Positions 31,435-38,395 are shown, counted from the stretch's first letter. The stretch is 64,000 nucleotides of DNA from Escherichia coli (GCF_003790525.1 NZ_CP033634.1), one strand, 5' to 3'. Notes: generated by a model not told the origin, from the sequence alone. A program made the numbers and translations.

Positions 31435-32523
31435 CTATTCAGTTAGCATGAGCTTTGCTTTAAGAAACGTAAGTTTGATGTCATCAGTTTTGGTGAACTT
31501 GAACTTACCGTCAGTAGAAGCGTTAAACCTTTCAAAATAGTATTCAAGTAGCGGATCGTACCTGCCACCGTGAACCCAAGTGTAGAACTTACCAAGTTCA
31601 TAACGTAACTCTTTATCAAGTTCAGATCTTATTCTCAGCTCACTATCGTTTGCTAGTTCAACGATGTTCATTTCTTGAAGGTTCGTCTTAATCTCTTCAA
31701 TCAGAGGTAGGAGGGATTCTTTATACTTATCAGCCAATGGTACAAGGTCAGCGTCAGTTACTTCCGCTTCAAAAATCATAATCAGGTCGTCAATCTCCCC
31801 GTTATAGTAATCGTTATCTAATCGTTTTTCTGACTCAGTACGAAGAACATAGAGTTGTTCTAAAGGATCTAATTTAGTCTCAATTTTTTCTTTTGAAAGT
31901 TTGTGTTGATACTCAACAAACAGCGTTTCAATCCTATCAGCAATAACATCAAGATACTCATATCGAATTCTGAGAAATTCCAACAGCTCATTGATATTGA
32001 GGTTTAACGTTAGGTCTTCTTTACCCACATCTCGACTGTACAAATGAACACTCAAATCGCCAGTGTTGAAATGACTTTGAAATGGCCAACTTGCGAAACG
32101 CTTTGAGTTTTCTTGATTCAGATTTACGGGGTGAGCACCGAAACACGCCCTGATAGTTTTAAAATAATTATTATCATCTTCATTAGCGAAGAGGCGATCT
32201 TTGAAACATTTCTTTTCACCATAAAACGGATCTTTCTTATCAGTTATAAACACTCGATGGAGTTGTTTTATTGACTCGAAAATAAGGTCTATTGAAGAGA
32301 TCAGAGAGTAGACCTGCATACATCTACTATCTATGTTCTTGTCAAACTCAGGCGCATTTTCTAAGTGGCGAACAGAGACAGAGATCCAATCCATAGCAGA
32401 GCAAACGAGGTTAAAAAGATTCTTACCACCTTTATCTTTGTATATTTGATACACAAAGCTAGAGTTTGAGTTAACTAAGTCTCGAAAATCACTGATTTTA
32501 TCGTCACTAACAACGTTTCTCAT
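31435..32523 (-). CDS. Hypothetical 362-aa protein, candidate abortive-infection effector (Rx5H HEPN-like motif)
   Basis: Long clean ORF in a low-GC segment; RACFGAH fits the Rx4-6H HEPN pattern; no other family recognised. Confidence 0.6.
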   Translation of the reverse strand: MRNVVSDDKISDFRDLVNSNSSFVYQIYKDKGGKNLFNLVCSAMDWISVSVRHLENAPEFDKNIDSRCMQVYSLISSIDLIFESIKQLHRVFITDKKDPFYGEKKCFKDRLFANEDDNNYFKTIRACFGAHPVNLNQENSKRFASWPFQSHFNTGDLSVHLYSRDVGKEDLTLNLNINELLEFLRIRYEYLDVIADRIETLFVEYQHKLSKEKIETKLDPLEQLYVLRTESEKRLDNDYYNGEIDDLIMIFEAEVTDADLVPLADKYKESLLPLIEEIKTNLQEMNIVELANDSELRIRSELDKELRYELGKFYTWVHGGRYDPLLEYYFERFNASTDGKFKFTKTDDIKLTFLKAKLMLTE

Positions 32524-32958
32524 TCTCTAATCGCCTTCTAACCAATTGAAAATATTATGAAGAATGGCAAAAATGATAGTGATAGTTCTTCAATTCTTCA
32601 ACTTCTTTTTTGATTTGAAGTGAAGTGATACGCTGGGTTTTGTCACTTAGTTAGATTTGAACGATGAGGATCTCTAGCCAGTTGTATTGCTAGGCATTAT
32701 CCGAAGACAAATAGAAGAACTGAACCTCGAAGTAACTTTTATCCTAGGACGTGCTGAAGCTGGTCTCCGCAAACTTGTGATCTAGGCCAACACGCCTTTG
32801 CCCCCAAAACATTTAAAGCTATCCCTCATCACACCTTGCTAACTCGTTACTTGCCCGAATTTTTGTAATGAGCCAATATGCTATTAGTTGGTTATCCACT
32901 TAATTGTTTTATCAATTTATTTGATGACAATTTACACCATGTGTTCAAGGTATTGATT

Positions 32959-34059
32959 ATGGAATTACAGACAAGGCTAGTTTTTATCGATACAAGCGCT
33001 TTTGAAAAGAAAAACTATCAATTTGGGCAACACGCTCTTGGTCGTCTTCAAGAACTAATTGAGGATGAGAAAATCCACTTGCTCATTACTGATGTGACAA
33101 GGAAAGAGATCGACTCCCATCTCAAACACAAATCTGAAGAAGCAGCTTCTATGATAAAGAAGATGCAAAGAGATGCGATGTTCCTAAGAAACACCCCCGA
33201 CCTTGATTGTCATGGCATCTTCACCAAGATTAAAGGTGATGATATTTATGCTGTTATCAGTGAAAAATTTGATGATTTCGTCGAAAACGGCTACGTCGAA
33301 ACAATTGATGTAAGCACTGTTAACCCTCAAGTTGTATTTGATGCTTACTTCAACAACCTTCCTCCTTTTGGCAAAGAATCAAAAAAGCACGAGTTTCCTG
33401 ATGCATTTGCGCTAGAAGCTATTAAACAGGTGAGCTTGGCTAGAGGATATTCAGCCTATATCGTTAGTGACGACGGCGATATGAAATCATTCTGTGAGAA
33501 AGAAGATAACTTCATTCATCTTGAAAATGTCGATGACCTAATTGACTTGATTGTTCGAAGCGACAAAGCGTACGAAGAACCAGCCAAATTTGCTGATGAA
33601 ATATTCGAACAACTCCTAGAACAAATCAAAGCGGATGCCCTGCAAGCTCTCGAAGATGGCGAGTTCAACTATGAAAACGCAGATCCTTTCGATGAGACTA
33701 TCAATTCTATAGAAATCAACTCGGTGAATGTTGGGAAGAAAAACTTACAGAATGTCGATGCCGAGTGGGCTGAATACGAAGTAGAATTTGAGGTGGTTGT
33801 TACGGCAGATTATCGATTCTCAGATTATGACCGTTCACCTTGGGACCCTGAAGACAAGCAATATGTATTCGTCTTGAGTAATGAGTCAACAGTAAAACAC
33901 AAAGAAACATACACTGCCCACATAACACTTGCCTATACCGATGGATTAAAAGCTAACGCATACATTGAAGAGTTTTACTTCCAAGATACATATTTTGAGC
34001 TGACTGATAATGACTCCGAAGTCATTAGCTTCAAAGAACTAGATATCAACGGTGAATGA
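32959..34059 (+). CDS. PIN-like domain protein (resembles DUF4935-type PIN-like nucleases); alternative upstream start at 32878
   Basis: N-terminal LVFIDTSAF...LLITDVTRKEI...EFPDAFALEAI...YIVSDDGDM pattern of acidic residues on a PIN-like scaffold; stop lies 2 nt before the next gene. Confidence 0.6.
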   Translation: MELQTRLVFIDTSAFEKKNYQFGQHALGRLQELIEDEKIHLLITDVTRKEIDSHLKHKSEEAASMIKKMQRDAMFLRNTPDLDCHGIFTKIKGDDIYAVISEKFDDFVENGYVETIDVSTVNPQVVFDAYFNNLPPFGKESKKHEFPDAFALEAIKQVSLARGYSAYIVSDDGDMKSFCEKEDNFIHLENVDDLIDLIVRSDKAYEEPAKFADEIFEQLLEQIKADALQALEDGEFNYENADPFDETINSIEINSVNVGKKNLQNVDAEWAEYEVEFEVVVTADYRFSDYDRSPWDPEDKQYVFVLSNESTVKHKETYTAHITLAYTDGLKANAYIEEFYFQDTYFELTDNDSEVISFKELDINGE

Positions 34060-34060
34060 C

Positions 34061-34529
34061 ATGAAGCTATATGTAATAGGTAATGGCTTTGATGTTCATC
34101 ATGGCCTTGACACTAGGTATACATCTTTTGGGCTTTATCTCAAAAATAACTACTGGGAAACTTATGAACTATTGCTCGACTATTACGGGTTTGCTGACTT
34201 AGACCCAGATTTTCCAACAACAATGTCAGACCCTTTATGGTCTGAATTTGAAACGAGTATGTCACTGCTTGATAAAGATTCAGTTTTGGAAGCAAACATG
34301 GATGCAATGCCAAACTATTCTTCAGATGACTTTCGAGACAGAGACCGATACACGCTTGAAATTGAGATGGAGCGAATACTTGGCCTTCTAACCACTGAAC
34401 TGTATAAAGCATTCAAAGAGTTCATTTTGGCTGTACAGTTTCCTCAGTTTGATCACAGCCGATCAGTAAACATTGATAGAGACGCTGTTTACCTCACATT
34501 CAACTACACAGATACGCTTTCTCAATACT
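34061..34529 (+). pseudogene. AbiH-like abortive infection gene, truncated at codon 156 by IS2
   Basis: N-terminus MKLYVIGNGFDVHHGLDTRYTSF matches the recalled AbiH N-terminal signature; the frame runs into the IS2 left end at 34530. Confidence 0.6.
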
Positions 34530-34620
34530 TAGACTGGCTCCCTGAATCTCCAGACAACCAGTATCACTTAAATAAGTGATAGTCTTAATACTAGTTTTTA
34601 GACTAGTCATTGGAGAACAG

Positions 34621-34986
34621 ATGATTGATGTCTTAGGGCCGGAGAAACGCAGACGGCGTACCACACAGGAAAAGATCGCAATTGTTCAGCAGAGCTTTGA
34701 ACCGGGGATGACGGTCTCCCTCGTTGCCCGGCAACATGGTGTAGCAGCCAGCCAGTTATTTCTCTGGCGTAAGCAATACCAGGAAGGAAGTCTTACTGCT
34801 GTCGCCGCCGGAGAACAGGTTGTTCCTGCCTCTGAACTTGCTGCCGCCATGAAGCAGATTAAAGAACTCCAGCGCCTGCTCGGCAAGAAAACGATGGAAA
34901 ATGAACTCCTCAAAGAAGCCGTTGAATATGGACGGGCAAAAAAGTGGATAGCGCACGCGCCCTTATTGCCCGGGGATGGGGAGTAA
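34621..34986 (+). CDS. insC: IS2 OrfA (InsC)
   Basis: [56 protein letters not shown]... Confidence 0.92.
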
Positions 34987-35849
34987 GCTTAGTCAGCCGT
35001 TGTCTCCGGGTGTCGCGTGCGCAGTTGCACGTCATTCTCAGACGAACCGATGACTGGATGGATGGCCGCCGCAGTCGTCACACTGATGATACGGATGTGC
35101 TTCTCCGTATACACCATGTTATCGGAGAGCTGCCCACGTATGGTTATCGTCGGGTATGGGCGCTGCTTCGCAGACAGGCAGAACTTGATGGTATGCCTGC
35201 GATCAATGCCAAACGTGTTTACCGGATCATGCGCCAGAATGCGCTGTTGCTTGAGCGAAAACCTGCTGTACCGCCATCGAAACGGGCACATACAGGCAGA
35301 GTGGCCGTGAAAGAAAGCAATCAGCGATGGTGCTCTGACGGGTTCGAGTTCTGCTGTGATAACGGAGAGAGACTGCGTGTCACGTTCGCGCTGGACTGCT
35401 GTGATCGTGAGGCACTGCACTGGGCGGTCACTACCGGCGGCTTCAACAGTGAAACAGTACAGGACGTCATGCCAGGAGCGGTGGAACGCCGCTTCGGCAA
35501 CGATCTTCCGTCGTCTCCAGTGGAGTGGCTGACGGATAATGGTTCATGCTACCGGGCTAATGAAACACGCCAGTTCGCCCGGATGTTGGGACTTGAACCG
35601 AAGAACACGGCGGTGCGGAGTCCGGAGAGTAACGGAATAGCAGAGAGCTTCGTGAAAACGATAAAGCGTGACTACATCAGTATCATGCCCAAACCAGACG
35701 GGTTAACGGCAGCAAAGAACCTTGCAGAGGCGTTCGAGCATTATAACGAATGGCATCCGCATAGTGCGCTGGGTTATCGCTCGCCACGGGAATATCTGCG
35801 GCAGCGGGCTTGTAATGGGTTAAGTGATAACAGATGTCTGGAAATATAG
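34944..35849 (+). CDS. insD: IS2 OrfB (InsD) transposase catalytic part (expressed as OrfAB frameshift fusion)
   Basis: DDE integrase-like ORF overlapping orfA in the -1 frame. Confidence 0.92.
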
Positions 35850-37378: not shown

Positions 37379-38395
37379 ATGACTGTTGTTACTGTCGGTA
37401 TTGATTTAGCTAAAAATGTGTTCGCTGTGCATGGCGTTAATGCTGCAGGAAAAGCTGTTTTAGTTAAGCCTCTTGTGCGTCGGGCTAAATTGCTTGAATT
37501 GATTGCAACACTTCCAGCATGTCTGATTGGAATTGAAGCATGTACAGGTGCACATTACTGGGCAAGAGAGTTCCAGAAAATGGGGCATACAGTTCGAATT
37601 ATGGCGCCGCAACTGGTTTCTCCATACCGTATGGGTGGCCGTCATGGGAAAAATGATGCTGCAGATGCCGCTGCCATTTGTGAAGCTGTTACCCGTCCTA
37701 ATATGCGGTTTGTTCCCATAAAATCAGTTGAGCAGCAAGGGCAGTTATTTGTACACAGAGCTCATCAGGGATATGTCAGTGAGAGAACAGCATTGATTAA
37801 TCGCATCCGGGGATTGCTCAGTGAGTTAGGTATTGTTCTCCCGCAGGCGTTTAAAGCGTTTTTATCCGGGGTGGCTCAGGTCCTTGAGGATTTGCCCGGT
37901 TACTGTAATCAGGTTATTGGTGATCTTCTTAATGAGCTTTATCACATAGAAGAAAAGATTAAAAACAGTGAAAAACTCATTCAGCAACTTGCCAGAGATA
38001 ACTCAGCAGCACAACTACTAATGCAATTCAGGGGGATAGGCCCGATGACTGCAACAGCAATCGTTGCCAGCATAGGTAATGGTCATGATTTCAAGAACGG
38101 ACGTCAGTTTAGTGCCTGGCTGGGGCTAACACCAAGACAACAAAGTTCCGGGGGGAAAGCACGGTTAGGGAGAATAACTAAAGCCGGCGACAGCTATCTC
38201 AGAACACTTCTTGTTTTGGGGGCGAGATCTGTATTGTTGGGAGCAGCTAAAAATGATGATCCGGTCAGTCGATGGGCCCTGCAGTTAAAAGAAAGGCGAG
38301 GATATGGACGAGCGCTTGTTGCGATAGCAGCAAAAAATGCACGTATGTGCTGGGCAATGTTGCACCTGAGAGATGAATTCAGATTTCCTGCCTAG
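37379..38395 (+). CDS. IS110-family transposase/recombinase
   Basis: 338 aa; N-terminal RuvC-like segment (VGIDLAKNVFAVHG...IGIEACTGAHYW), NDAADAAAICEA motif and C-terminal GIGPMTATAIVASIGNGHDF segment; element ends not determined. Confidence 0.85.
   Translation: MTVVTVGIDLAKNVFAVHGVNAAGKAVLVKPLVRRAKLLELIATLPACLIGIEACTGAHYWAREFQKMGHTVRIMAPQLVSPYRMGGRHGKNDAADAAAICEAVTRPNMRFVPIKSVEQQGQLFVHRAHQGYVSERTALINRIRGLLSELGIVLPQAFKAFLSGVAQVLEDLPGYCNQVIGDLLNELYHIEEKIKNSEKLIQQLARDNSAAQLLMQFRGIGPMTATAIVASIGNGHDFKNGRQFSAWLGLTPRQQSSGGKARLGRITKAGDSYLRTLLVLGARSVLLGAAKNDDPVSRWALQLKERRGYGRALVAIAAKNARMCWAMLHLRDEFRFPA

What the first reader, a model, noticed from the sequence alone, without database searches (positions are those of the whole stretch)
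31435..32523. 362-aa orphan ORF with an HEPN-like Rx5H motif as candidate abortive-infection effector
Largest gene of the impB insertion, divergent from the PIN-like/AbiH-like pair, strongly low-GC, with no family I can assign. It contains RACFGAH, which fits the Rx4-6H signature of HEPN RNases used by many Abi and toxin systems. Its size is in the range of Abi_2 (AbiD/AbiF)-type proteins.
Basis: inference. Interest (0 to 1): 0.75.

Follow-up and report, generated by a model that had tools for sequence, protein, structure and literature searches.

The report
Uncharacterised mobile single-gene defence candidate
The 362-residue gene is real and belongs to a large, unnamed protein family that travels as a self-contained 1.5-kb module between marine bacteria, plasmids, prophages and defence islands; its Arg-x5-His motif is the most conserved part of the family, but I could neither show nor exclude that it is a HEPN RNase.

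Summary
The ORF (31435-32523, minus strand, 362 aa, about 37% GC) and RACFGAH (residues 125-131) are there. It is not an orphan: there are 386 clusters at 90% identity and 572 representatives at 50%, in Gammaproteobacteria and Firmicutes. None has a Pfam, NCBIfam, PADLOC, PHROG or PDB sequence match.

An Rx4-6H string occurs by chance in 68% of shuffles of this protein. Conservation is what makes the motif meaningful: H131 is invariant, as are D117 and W46, and R125 is kept in 97% of 106 diverse members.

The AlphaFold2 model (pLDDT 89.8) puts R125 at the end of a short helix and H131 in the following loop. This follows a long helix with conserved acidic residues and a loop insert, which fits the published HEPN layout. 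However:
- the residue after R is Ala;
- no HEPN profile matches (hhalign against Abi_2: 0.07%);

The gene has no conserved partner. It sits on a 1,486-bp module found 95-98.5% identical in four Vibrionaceae genomes. It recurs next to Gabija, AbiD, AbiH, AbiE, RM genes and a PADLOC candidate system, in an ICE variable region and in prophage accessory positions.

Verdict: a plausible new stand-alone defence or abortive-infection family. The HEPN mechanism is unproven.

The parts
31435..32523 (-). Coding sequence of the 362-aa protein, a member of a large uncharacterised family.
   Evidence: ORF. Annotated intact in RefSeq. 386 clusters and 572 representatives are homologous. dN/dS is 0.04-0.13 for most orthologue pairs.
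32131..32151 (-). Codons for R125-A-C-F-G-A-H131, the Rx5H motif.
   Evidence: H131 is invariant and R125 is kept in 97% of 106 diverse members. R125 lies at the C-terminal end of predicted helix 117-128 and H131 in the following loop.
32119..32175 (-). Codons 117-135 (DDNNYFKTIRACFGAHPVN), the most conserved segment of the family. It starts with invariant D117.
   Evidence: Mean column conservation is 0.76, against 0.31-0.60 elsewhere. D117 is kept in 106/106 members.
31891..32418 (-). Conserved N-terminal core, residues 36-211: helix 36-55, helix 64-92 (D79, E83, Q87, H89, R90), loop insert 93-116, helix 117-128, motif loop, a three-stranded sheet (141-175, carrying FASWP 143-147), and helix 177-211.
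   Evidence: AlphaFold2 secondary structure. Conservation. Coevolution contacts: H1/H2 antiparallel, H2/H4 parallel, 118-183, 82-118, and 87/90-134.
31438..31890 (-). Less conserved C-terminal helical half, residues 212-362. It is the candidate regulatory, sensing or oligomerisation part (inference).
   Evidence: Helices 220-361. Mean conservation is 0.31-0.40. R234 and Y308 are nearly invariant.
32573..32601 (-). Sigma-70-like promoter candidate, TTGAAG-17-TATCAT, upstream of the gene.
   Evidence: Consensus scan. The scan is not enriched over shuffles, but this stretch is conserved in Salinivibrio, Vibrio, Shewanella marinintestina and partly V. parahaemolyticus upstream regions.
31323..32808 (-). 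Self-contained 1,486-bp single-gene module: 285 bp upstream region, the gene, and about 110 nt of tail.
   Evidence: It is 95-98.5% nt identical, with the same sharp ends, in four Vibrionaceae genomes that share none of the island's other genes.
31326..31331 (+). TGCCCC at the module's 3' border (GGGGCA on the gene strand).
   Evidence: Homology to L016, L017 and L002 stops right after ...CATAAAGGGGCA. It is one of only two TGCCCC sites inside the island.
32797..32808 (+). TTTGCCCCCAAA junction shared by the 362-aa module (its 5' border) and the PIN-AbiH module (its left border).
   Evidence: The Shewanella baltica pSBP1 match to PIN-AbiH starts at TTTGCCCC. The Vibrionaceae matches to the 362-aa module end at GGGGCA on the gene strand.
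31036..31322 (.). AT-rich non-coding end of the island, between the truncated impB/umuC and the module.
   Evidence: Sequence. The umuC pseudogene ends at window position 31035. This corresponds to the short AT-rich 3' end described for GInt islands (PMC5385486).

Best explanation
The gene encodes a stand-alone, constitutively promoted immune-type effector (abortive-infection-like), carried as cargo on mobile elements.

Shown:
- It belongs to a large family under purifying selection.
- It needs no conserved partner gene.
- It moves as a 1.5-kb module of promoter plus gene.
- It recurs among defence genes, in an ICE variable region and in prophage accessory positions.

Inferred:
- The conserved N-terminal core (residues about 36-211) is the catalytic part. 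Its centre is built from invariant H131 and D117, R125, and residues of the preceding long helix (D79, E83, Q87-R90).
- The most likely chemistry is HEPN-like, metal-independent RNA cleavage by an Rx5H site. That probably requires dimerisation.
- The less conserved C-terminal helical half keeps the enzyme silent until a phage cue is present.

The defence role is the better supported part. The RNase chemistry is the weaker part.
For: Family size and constraint.

Conservation: H131, D117 and W46 are invariant. R125 is kept in 97%, D79 in 98% and E83 in 89% of 106 members with 24-58% identity to the query. Residues 117-135 are the conservation peak.

Layout against the HEPN description in PMC3710099:
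- The AlphaFold2 model (pLDDT 89.8, pTM 0.79) puts R125 at the end of a helix and H131 at the start of the following loop.
- This follows a long helix bearing acidic residues and a 24-residue loop insert.
- Coevolution contacts agree with an H1-H2 hairpin, H2 parallel to H4, H3 packed on H2 and H4, and residues 87/90 near 134.

No conserved neighbour in 36 genome loci. The 1,486-bp module is shared with four Vibrionaceae genomes.

Defence company:
- AbiD plus GajA/GajB in V. pelagius.
- GajA/GajB in Marinomonas rhodophyticola.
- PDC-S20, a PADLOC candidate system, in M. balearica.
- A 1,579-aa Eco57I-type protein and an EVE protein.
- A fusion to AbiEi followed by AbiEii.
- PIN/AbiH in the window.
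- AbiH 3.4 kb away in Petroclostridium.

Mobile-element positions: the region between traN and ssb-recT-yqaJ of an SXT/R391-like ICE in Edwardsiella ictaluri, and accessory positions in two temperate phages and eight IMG/VR contigs.

Disrupted copies recur, as expected for a costly gene.

Single-protein HEPN abortive-infection proteins have precedent, for example HepS (PMC13043305).
Against: - No sequence-profile match to any HEPN-clan Pfam family for any of 106 members. No PADLOC model matched any of the 12 members scanned.
- hhalign against an Abi_2 alignment gives 0.07% probability.
- Foldseek against PDB finds nothing below E 0.09.
- All 49 significant AFDB50 matches are uncharacterised and appear to be family members.
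- The residue after R is Ala (88%), not the polar N/D/H usual in HEPN.
- A roughly 45-residue sheet separates the motif from the next helix.
- Only about 8 of about 40 inspected contexts have a recognisable defence gene next door. 26 of 30 nearest-neighbour ORFs scanned had no convincing PADLOC hit.
- There are no experimental data.
Confidence: 0.4

Rival explanations
1. It is a defence or abortive-infection protein, but not a HEPN RNase. The invariant D117/H131/W46 centre would belong to a new helical fold with another activity, such as action on DNA, nucleotides, NAD or membranes, or a purely sensing or scaffolding role.
For: The context evidence is the same as for the best explanation. Every homology and fold search failed to find HEPN. 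The residue after R is Ala. D117 and W46 are invariant and have no counterpart in the HEPN description. A sheet is inserted after the motif.
Against: The position of Rx5H at a helix end, the acidic helix before it and the loop insert fit HEPN well. No alternative fold or enzyme family was detected either.
Confidence: 0.25
2. It is an anti-defence or establishment factor of mobile elements. It would help plasmids, ICEs and phages overcome host immunity rather than protect the host.
For: It is carried by conjugative plasmids, an ICE and temperate phages. In V. parahaemolyticus it sits beside an MPTase-PolyVal protein (PF18818), whose ArdC-type anti-restriction association I recall from memory, and beside methyltransferase genes. 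In IncI-type plasmids the host island lies a few kb from ardA and an orphan methylase.
Against: A solitary chromosomal copy lies between housekeeping genes in Shewanella marinintestina. Other copies are adjacent to Gabija, AbiD, AbiH and RM genes in chromosomal islands. It has its own promoter and is larger than most known anti-defence proteins (size comparison from memory). The position in the IncI plasmid is set by the umuC target of the island, not by the leading region.
Confidence: 0.1
3. It is a toxin or addiction-type stabilisation gene, part of a toxin-antitoxin-like pair, and its main role is maintenance of the element that carries it.
For: One member is fused to an AbiEi antitoxin/regulator domain, upstream of AbiEii. 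In a Latilactobacillus prophage a 74-aa Cro/C1 HTH gene ends 6 nt before the family gene. Pseudogenised copies recur.
Against: No conserved neighbour was found across 36 genome loci. The mobile module contains only this gene, with no second ORF or Rfam RNA. The AbiEi fusion was seen once, and relatives of that subfamily are not fused.
Confidence: 0.1

Closest known systems
Single-protein HEPN abortive-infection nucleases, e.g. HepS of prophage Gifsy-1 (PMC13043305), and the HEPN superfamily as defined by Anantharaman et al. 2013 (PMC3710099)
   Same: A stand-alone gene on mobile elements and prophages. A conserved Rx4-6H string placed at the end of a helix and the start of the following loop. 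A conserved acidic residue in the preceding helix. A loop insert before the motif helix. An all-helical core.
   Different: No detectable sequence or structural similarity to any HEPN family. Ala follows the Arg instead of N/D/H. A roughly 45-residue sheet follows the motif. D117 and W46 are invariant in addition. It is much larger than HepS-type proteins, for which that paper excluded sequences longer than 250 aa. No RNase activity or dimer has been shown.
Abi_2 / AbiD-AbiF family (PF07751)
   Same: Similar length (about 330-390 aa), a single-gene Abi-type protein with an R-x-x-x-x-H core, found in the same Vibrio defence island.
   Different: Profile-profile comparison gives 0.07% probability. 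No Pfam PF07751 hit for any of 106 members. The motif context differs: RNRCAHH in Abi_2 against RAxFGAHP here.
Cargo of GInt islands / rulB(umuC)-targeting integron-like elements (PMC5385486, PMC4542609)
   Same: In E. coli NCTC86 and in Shigella and Salmonella plasmids the gene lies in a roughly 10-kb island. The island is inserted about 99 nt into umuC. It consists of a tyrosine recombinase, two large ORFs and a small ORF, then variable cargo and a short AT-rich end.
   Different: The gene is cargo, not part of the mobility machinery. The window copy of the island has lost the recombinase operon to IS2. Only one of the two large ORFs shows recombinase-like strings, and the other has a weak Pfam hit. 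The same gene module also occurs outside such islands.
Defence genes carried as compact cassettes, e.g. integron cassettes of Vibrio (bioRxiv 10.1101/2024.07.02.601686, title and abstract seen)
   Same: A small, self-contained, single-gene unit with sharp borders. It is found in several Vibrionaceae genomes and lies in tandem with a second unit (PIN-AbiH) that shares a border sequence.
   Different: By eye, the borders read GGGGCA/TTTGCCCC, not the integron GTTRRRY core (core recalled from memory). No attC-like array or integron integrase was seen in the Vibrio loci. The unit carries its own promoter region.

Membership tests
HEPN superfamily | Conserved Rx4-6H motif | tested here: met
   RACFGAH at residues 125-131. 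H is kept in 106/106 and R in 103/106 diverse members. In a single sequence the string is expected by chance (P=0.68).
HEPN superfamily | [quoted passage not shown] | tested here: inconclusive
   AlphaFold2 secondary structure has helix 117-128, then a loop containing H131. This agrees with the description.
HEPN superfamily | Polar residue (N, D or H) immediately after the conserved Arg | tested here: not met
   Position 126 is Ala in 88% of members, and Ser, Thr or Gly in the rest. The criterion comes from one search, which says 'typically', so this is not absolute.
HEPN superfamily | Conserved acidic residue in helix 2, near the motif | tested here: inconclusive
   D79 (98%) and E83 (89%) lie in helix 64-92. 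Coevolution links 82-118 and 87/90-134. Proximity of D79/E83 to R125/H131 was not measured.
HEPN superfamily | Four-helix up-down core of two alpha-hairpins, with a frequent insert between helices 2 and 3 | tested here: inconclusive
   The helix order 36-55, 64-92, [loop 93-116], 117-128, [sheet], 177-211 and the coevolution contacts are compatible. Helix 3 is short, and a 45-residue sheet precedes helix 4.
HEPN superfamily | Detectable profile or structural similarity to an established HEPN family | tested here: not met
HEPN superfamily | Dimer with a composite active site; metal-independent RNase activity | not testable with these tools
   There was no multimer prediction, no coordinates and no biochemistry.
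Abi_2 (AbiD/AbiF, PF07751) | Match to the family profile | tested here: not met
   hhalign of A2 against the Abi_2 alignment A3 gives probability 0.07%. No PF07751 hit. No AbiD or AbiF model in PADLOC matched.
Known or candidate anti-phage systems (PADLOC-DB v2.0.0) | Match to any of 5,027 models | tested here: not met
   No family at E<=1 for the query. None was found for nine distant members apart from the AbiEi part of one fusion and one weak PtuB hit (E 0.006). None was found for the two phage-borne members.
Toxin-antitoxin pair | Conserved adjacent partner gene | tested here: not met
   All-against-all clustering of ORFs from about 45 loci finds no neighbour family linked to the gene. The 1,486-bp module holds one ORF.
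Defence-island resident (guilt by association) | Recurrent adjacency to known defence genes in unrelated genomes | tested here: inconclusive
   Clear cases: Gabija twice, AbiD, PDC-S20 (a PADLOC candidate system), a 1,579-aa Eco57I-type protein plus an EVE protein, AbiE, AbiH twice. But 26 of 30 nearest-neighbour ORFs from about 22 further loci had no convincing hit. No background control was run.
Integron gene cassette | Borders at a GTTRRRY core (recalled from memory) with an attC site, in an array next to an integron integrase | tested here: not met
   By eye, the borders are GGGGCA/TTTGCCCC. No repeat array of attC type was found in L015-L018. No dedicated attC model was available.

The most novel reading that the evidence does not exclude
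The family is a new kind of stand-alone immune enzyme whose D117-R125-H131 centre is not a HEPN site. Its 1.5-kb promoter-plus-gene unit, bounded by GGGGCA cores and joined head-to-tail to a second unit (PIN-AbiH) at a shared TTTGCCCC junction, would reveal an undescribed cassette-exchange mechanism. That mechanism would load defence genes into the cargo end of umuC-targeting recombinase islands and into Vibrionaceae genomes.
Probability: 0.12. Interest if true: 0.75.

Novelty: new variant of a known kind. Interest (0 to 1): 0.42.

Why it matters
If the module protects against phages, it adds a widespread family that none of the libraries searched here covers (no Pfam, NCBIfam or PADLOC model) to the list of single-gene immune proteins. 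The family has about 570 clusters at 50% identity, from marine Gammaproteobacteria to Firmicutes and their prophages.

It would also give a compact 1.5-kb unit with a clear mutational target: D117, R125 and H131.

The near-identity to Vibrio and Salinivibrio genes (97-99% protein identity, 95-98.5% over the whole module) documents recent flow of cargo from marine bacteria. The flow reached E. coli, Shigella, Salmonella, Klebsiella and Proteus plasmids, and the chromosome of E. coli NCTC86, through a umuC-targeting island.

It is not a surprise to a specialist. Candidate defence genes with HEPN-like motifs on mobile elements are common, and nothing here is yet functional evidence.

Tried and rejected
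Searches that found nothing:
- Sequence searches of the query and of family profiles against Pfam, NCBIfam, PADLOC, PHROGs and PDB.
- Literature searches for the protein accession and for phage phi458. Neither gave a description of the family.

Ideas tested and rejected:
- Abi_2 relationship. An Abi_2 alignment was built from the V. pelagius AbiD neighbour and compared by hhalign. It was rejected at 0.07% probability.
- A three-gene system with PIN and AbiH. The two modules occur separately, in Shewanella baltica and in Vibrionaceae, and only abut in the island.
- A conserved partner or antitoxin. None was found. The ORF that overlaps P0259 is unrelated to AbiEi.
- A conserved upstream RNA element. 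Upstream regions align only among close relatives, and Rfam gives nothing.
- An integron cassette. The border sequences are wrong and there are no attC-type repeats.

Fusion partners:
- The 255-residue N-terminal extension of P0131 has no known family.
- The C-terminal extension of P0240 is AbiEi/DUF6577, but this was seen only once.

Correction of my own recollection: I first placed the HEPN motif at the start of helix 4, which would have argued against HEPN. Reading PMC3710099 corrected this.

Full report
**1. What is in the sequence**

An ORF of 362 codons runs from 32523 to 31435 on the minus strand. The window is 100% identical to E. coli GZM7 plasmid pGZM7d (NZ_CP129283.1), where RefSeq annotates the ORF as an intact hypothetical protein.

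GC is about 0.37 from 31000 to 34500, against roughly 0.45-0.55 around it.

The order of the surrounding genes is as follows:
- a umuC/impB pseudogene lacking its 5' end (29848-31035, minus strand);
- the 362-aa gene (minus strand);
- a PIN-domain gene (plus strand);
- an AbiH gene cut after 175 codons;
- IS2;
- 99 nt of the umuC 5' end;
- umuD/impA and a dinI-like gene.

RACFGAH is at residues 125-131 and is the only Rx4-6H string in the protein. By itself it means little: 68% of 20,000 shuffles of this protein contain such a string.

**2. The gene is not an orphan**

A search of 5.8 billion proteins found 386 clusters at E<=1e-3. Most are 360-370 aa, all are 'hypothetical', and none carries a Pfam domain. 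They come from Vibrio, Shewanella, Marinomonas, Moritella, Photobacterium, Psychrobacter, Edwardsiella and others.

A profile search of 1.84 billion representatives found 572 clusters at 50% identity. Structure-based matches extend the family to Bacillus, Clostridia, Latilactobacillus and a mollicute, all 'Uncharacterized protein'.

dN/dS against orthologues is 0.04-0.13. One near-identical pair that differs at only 10 nt gives 0.38.

In an alignment of 106 diverse members (24-58% identity to the query):
- W46, D117 and H131 are invariant;
- S42, D45, D79, R125 (97%), F128, S145, W146, Y162, R234 and Y308 are at least 90% conserved.

Residues 117-135 (DDNxYFKxIRAxFGAHPVN) form the conservation peak, at 0.76 against 0.31-0.60 elsewhere. 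That follows from conservation, not from the string itself.

**3. Is it HEPN?**

No library recognises the protein or its relatives:
- Pfam, run on the query and separately on each of 34 and 106 members;
- NCBIfam;
- PADLOC;
- PHROGs;
- PDB sequences, by phmmer and by two profiles.

An AlphaFold2 model built on 34 homologues is confident (pLDDT 89.8, pTM 0.79). Its fold matches are uninformative:
- Foldseek against PDB gives nothing below E 0.09.
- All 49 significant AFDB50 matches are uncharacterised and appear to be family members.

A profile-profile comparison with an Abi_2 (AbiD/AbiF) alignment, built from a Vibrio neighbour gene, gives 0.07% probability.

[quoted passage not shown] It also describes a conserved acidic residue in helix 2 and frequent inserts between helices 2 and 3 (PMC3710099). 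The model has this order: helix 36-55; helix 64-92 carrying D79 and E83; a 24-residue loop; helix 117-128 ending near R125; and H131 in the loop.

A coevolution analysis of 240 sequences (Neff 173) supports the following contacts:
- an antiparallel 36-55/64-92 hairpin;
- helix 64-92 parallel to helix 177-211;
- 118-183 and 82-118;
- 87/90-134.

This is what a HEPN-like bundle would give, but it is not specific to HEPN.

Against HEPN: the residue after Arg is Ala rather than N/D/H, a 45-residue three-stranded sheet follows the motif, and D117 and W46 have no HEPN counterpart.

I could not inspect coordinates or model a dimer. My reading is that HEPN-like chemistry is permitted, and is the best single guess, but it has not been demonstrated.

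**4. The gene works and moves alone**

Clustering all ORFs from about 45 loci found no neighbour family linked to the gene.

The nucleotide match to four Vibrionaceae genomes covers window 31323-32808 at 95-98.5% identity and stops sharply at the same two points. The genomes are Salinivibrio sharmensis, V. anguillarum, Vibrio sp. ES.051 and a V. pelagius plasmid. None of the island's other genes is present in these loci. The unit is 285 bp of upstream region, with a conserved TTGAAG-17-TATCAT promoter-like site, the gene, and about 110 nt of tail.

Both ends carry GGGGCA on the gene strand.

The neighbouring PIN-AbiH pair is a separate 2,341-bp unit. It is 92.5% identical to a stretch of Shewanella baltica pSBP1, and it starts at the same TTTGCCCC junction. 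These two junctions are the only TGCCCC sites inside the island. I cannot explain this.

**5. The island**

In E. coli NCTC86 (chromosome) and in Shigella, Salmonella, Klebsiella and E. coli plasmids the gene lies at the far end of a roughly 10-kb insertion, about 99 nt into umuC. The insertion holds, in order:
- a tyrosine recombinase (509 aa);
- ORFs of 616, 663 and 146 aa;
- AbiH;
- PIN;
- the 362-aa gene;
- about 0.3 kb of AT-rich DNA.

This is the architecture of GInt islands and of the rulB-targeting 'integron-like elements' (PMC5385486, PMC4542609). The recombinase nature of the two large ORFs is only weakly supported here.

In the window, IS2 has removed the recombinase operon and the 3' part of AbiH. 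The island is therefore an immobile remnant in which the 362-aa gene is the only intact cargo gene besides PIN.

The gene is present in 28 of 5,426 complete E. coli genomes, with 24 of the 33 places chromosomal.

**6. Company elsewhere**

Recognisable defence genes lie next to family members in these places:
- V. pelagius: AbiD, GajA and GajB. The family gene here is a pseudogene.
- Marinomonas rhodophyticola: GajA and GajB.
- M. balearica: PDC-S20, a PADLOC candidate system built on a KAP NTPase.
- Two metagenomic contigs: a 1,579-aa Eco57I-type protein, and in one of them an EVE protein.
- Petroclostridium: AbiH 3.4 kb away.
- One metagenome-assembled genome: the family domain is fused to AbiEi/DUF6577, upstream of AbiEii.

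Mobile-element positions:
- In Edwardsiella ictaluri the gene lies between traN and the ssb-recT-yqaJ block of an SXT/R391-like ICE. From memory, this is a variable hotspot position.
- Two temperate phages carry relatives in accessory positions. Escherichia phage phi458 has one near the invertase and tail-fibre region. A Latilactobacillus phage has one between the endolysin and the integrase, just after a small Cro/C1 gene.
- Eight IMG/VR contigs carry relatives, several near contig ends.

Counter-examples exist. In Shewanella marinintestina the gene sits alone between housekeeping genes. 26 of 30 nearest-neighbour ORFs from about 22 further loci gave no convincing PADLOC hit.

Disrupted copies are frequent: five of the genome loci, the Proteus and Providencia plasmids, and an IS3 insertion in one E. 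coli plasmid.

**7. Explanation and rivals**

Best explanation (0.40): a stand-alone immune or abortive-infection-type effector. Its conserved N-terminal core carries the active centre, most likely a HEPN-like RNase site. Its more variable C-terminal helical half regulates or senses.

Rivals:
- The same role with a non-HEPN centre (0.25).
- An anti-defence or establishment factor of mobile elements (0.10).
- A toxin or addiction function (0.10).

The remaining probability goes to functions I cannot name.

**8. Comparison, novelty and score**

The gene works like, or at least looks like, single-protein HEPN abortive-infection nucleases such as HepS (PMC13043305). It fails the tests that would file it in any established HEPN family or in Abi_2.

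It is best described as a new, unnamed family that may be a new variant of a known kind of defence protein.

A specialist would find it a reasonable candidate rather than a surprise. The unexplained module borders are the most unusual feature. Interest: 0.42.

Noticed in passing
window 31323-32808 and 32797-34530; L012, L016, L017, L002, L054: Two adjacent cargo units have sharp borders that carry the same short core: the 362-aa gene unit and the PIN-AbiH unit. The core is TGCCCC/TTTGCCCC on the plus strand, and a degenerate TTGTCCAGAA at the far end. Inside the roughly 10-kb island TGCCCC occurs only at these two borders. Each unit is found separately at 92-98% identity in Vibrionaceae or Shewanella. 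This could mark a recombination site, but the mechanism is unknown.
   Followed up: partly
window 31036-35849; L053 5240-15489; L012: The 'impB insertion' is the remnant of a roughly 10-kb umuC-targeting island with GInt / integron-like-element architecture: a tyrosine recombinase, 616-aa and 663-aa ORFs, a 146-aa ORF, cargo and an AT-rich end. The island is also present in the chromosome of E. coli NCTC86. In the window, IS2 has deleted the recombinase operon and the last 144 codons of AbiH.
   Followed up: partly
L030 6231-7900 and L040 7710-9694: umuD-umuC genes lie next to family members in Marinomonas rhodophyticola and Photobacterium aquimaris as well, with no sign of the E. coli island's other genes. 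It is unclear whether this reflects umuC as a general insertion hotspot.
   Followed up: no
L009 6001-8935 (protein P0240): A 609-aa protein joins the family domain (residues 3-318) to a complete AbiEi/DUF6577 domain (384-588). An AbiEii gene follows it. Close relatives P0247 and P0259 are not fused.
   Followed up: partly
L011 783-2654 (protein P0131): A 623-aa member carries a 255-residue N-terminal extension (FGDINDYRKYGLLR..., LVFLDPDNGL) with no match in Pfam, NCBIfam or PADLOC.
   Followed up: partly
L014 4771-6149: In Latilactobacillus phage TMW 1.1381 P1 a 74-aa Cro/C1-type HTH gene ends 6 nt before the family gene, between the endolysin and the integrase. It may be a regulator or an antidote in this branch.
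   Followed up: no
L002 8001-9397; L034; L040; L048; L050; plasmids NZ_CP047590, NZ_CP046050, NZ_KX774387, NZ_MK181559: Family genes are often split, frameshifted or interrupted by insertion sequences, which suggests a cost of carriage.
   Followed up: partly
L017 4953-5228 and 11452-11727; L016 94-1086 and 5679-6573: In Vibrio sp. ES.051, 276-nt direct repeats (90% identical) lie 6.5 kb apart and bracket the family gene. In Salinivibrio, a 99-bp tandem array and roughly 420-bp repeats lie close to the module end.
   Followed up: no
window 34052-34579: The AbiH gene of this plasmid is truncated (175 of 319 codons), so the PIN-AbiH pair is probably inactive here, while the 362-aa gene is intact.
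   Followed up: yes
window 37379-38395 and 24875-27198: Other mobile or foreign material lies nearby: an IS110-family element (ISShdy1), and a block with a truncated nagE-like PTS gene, a DUF7916 gene and a GntR regulator.
   Followed up: no
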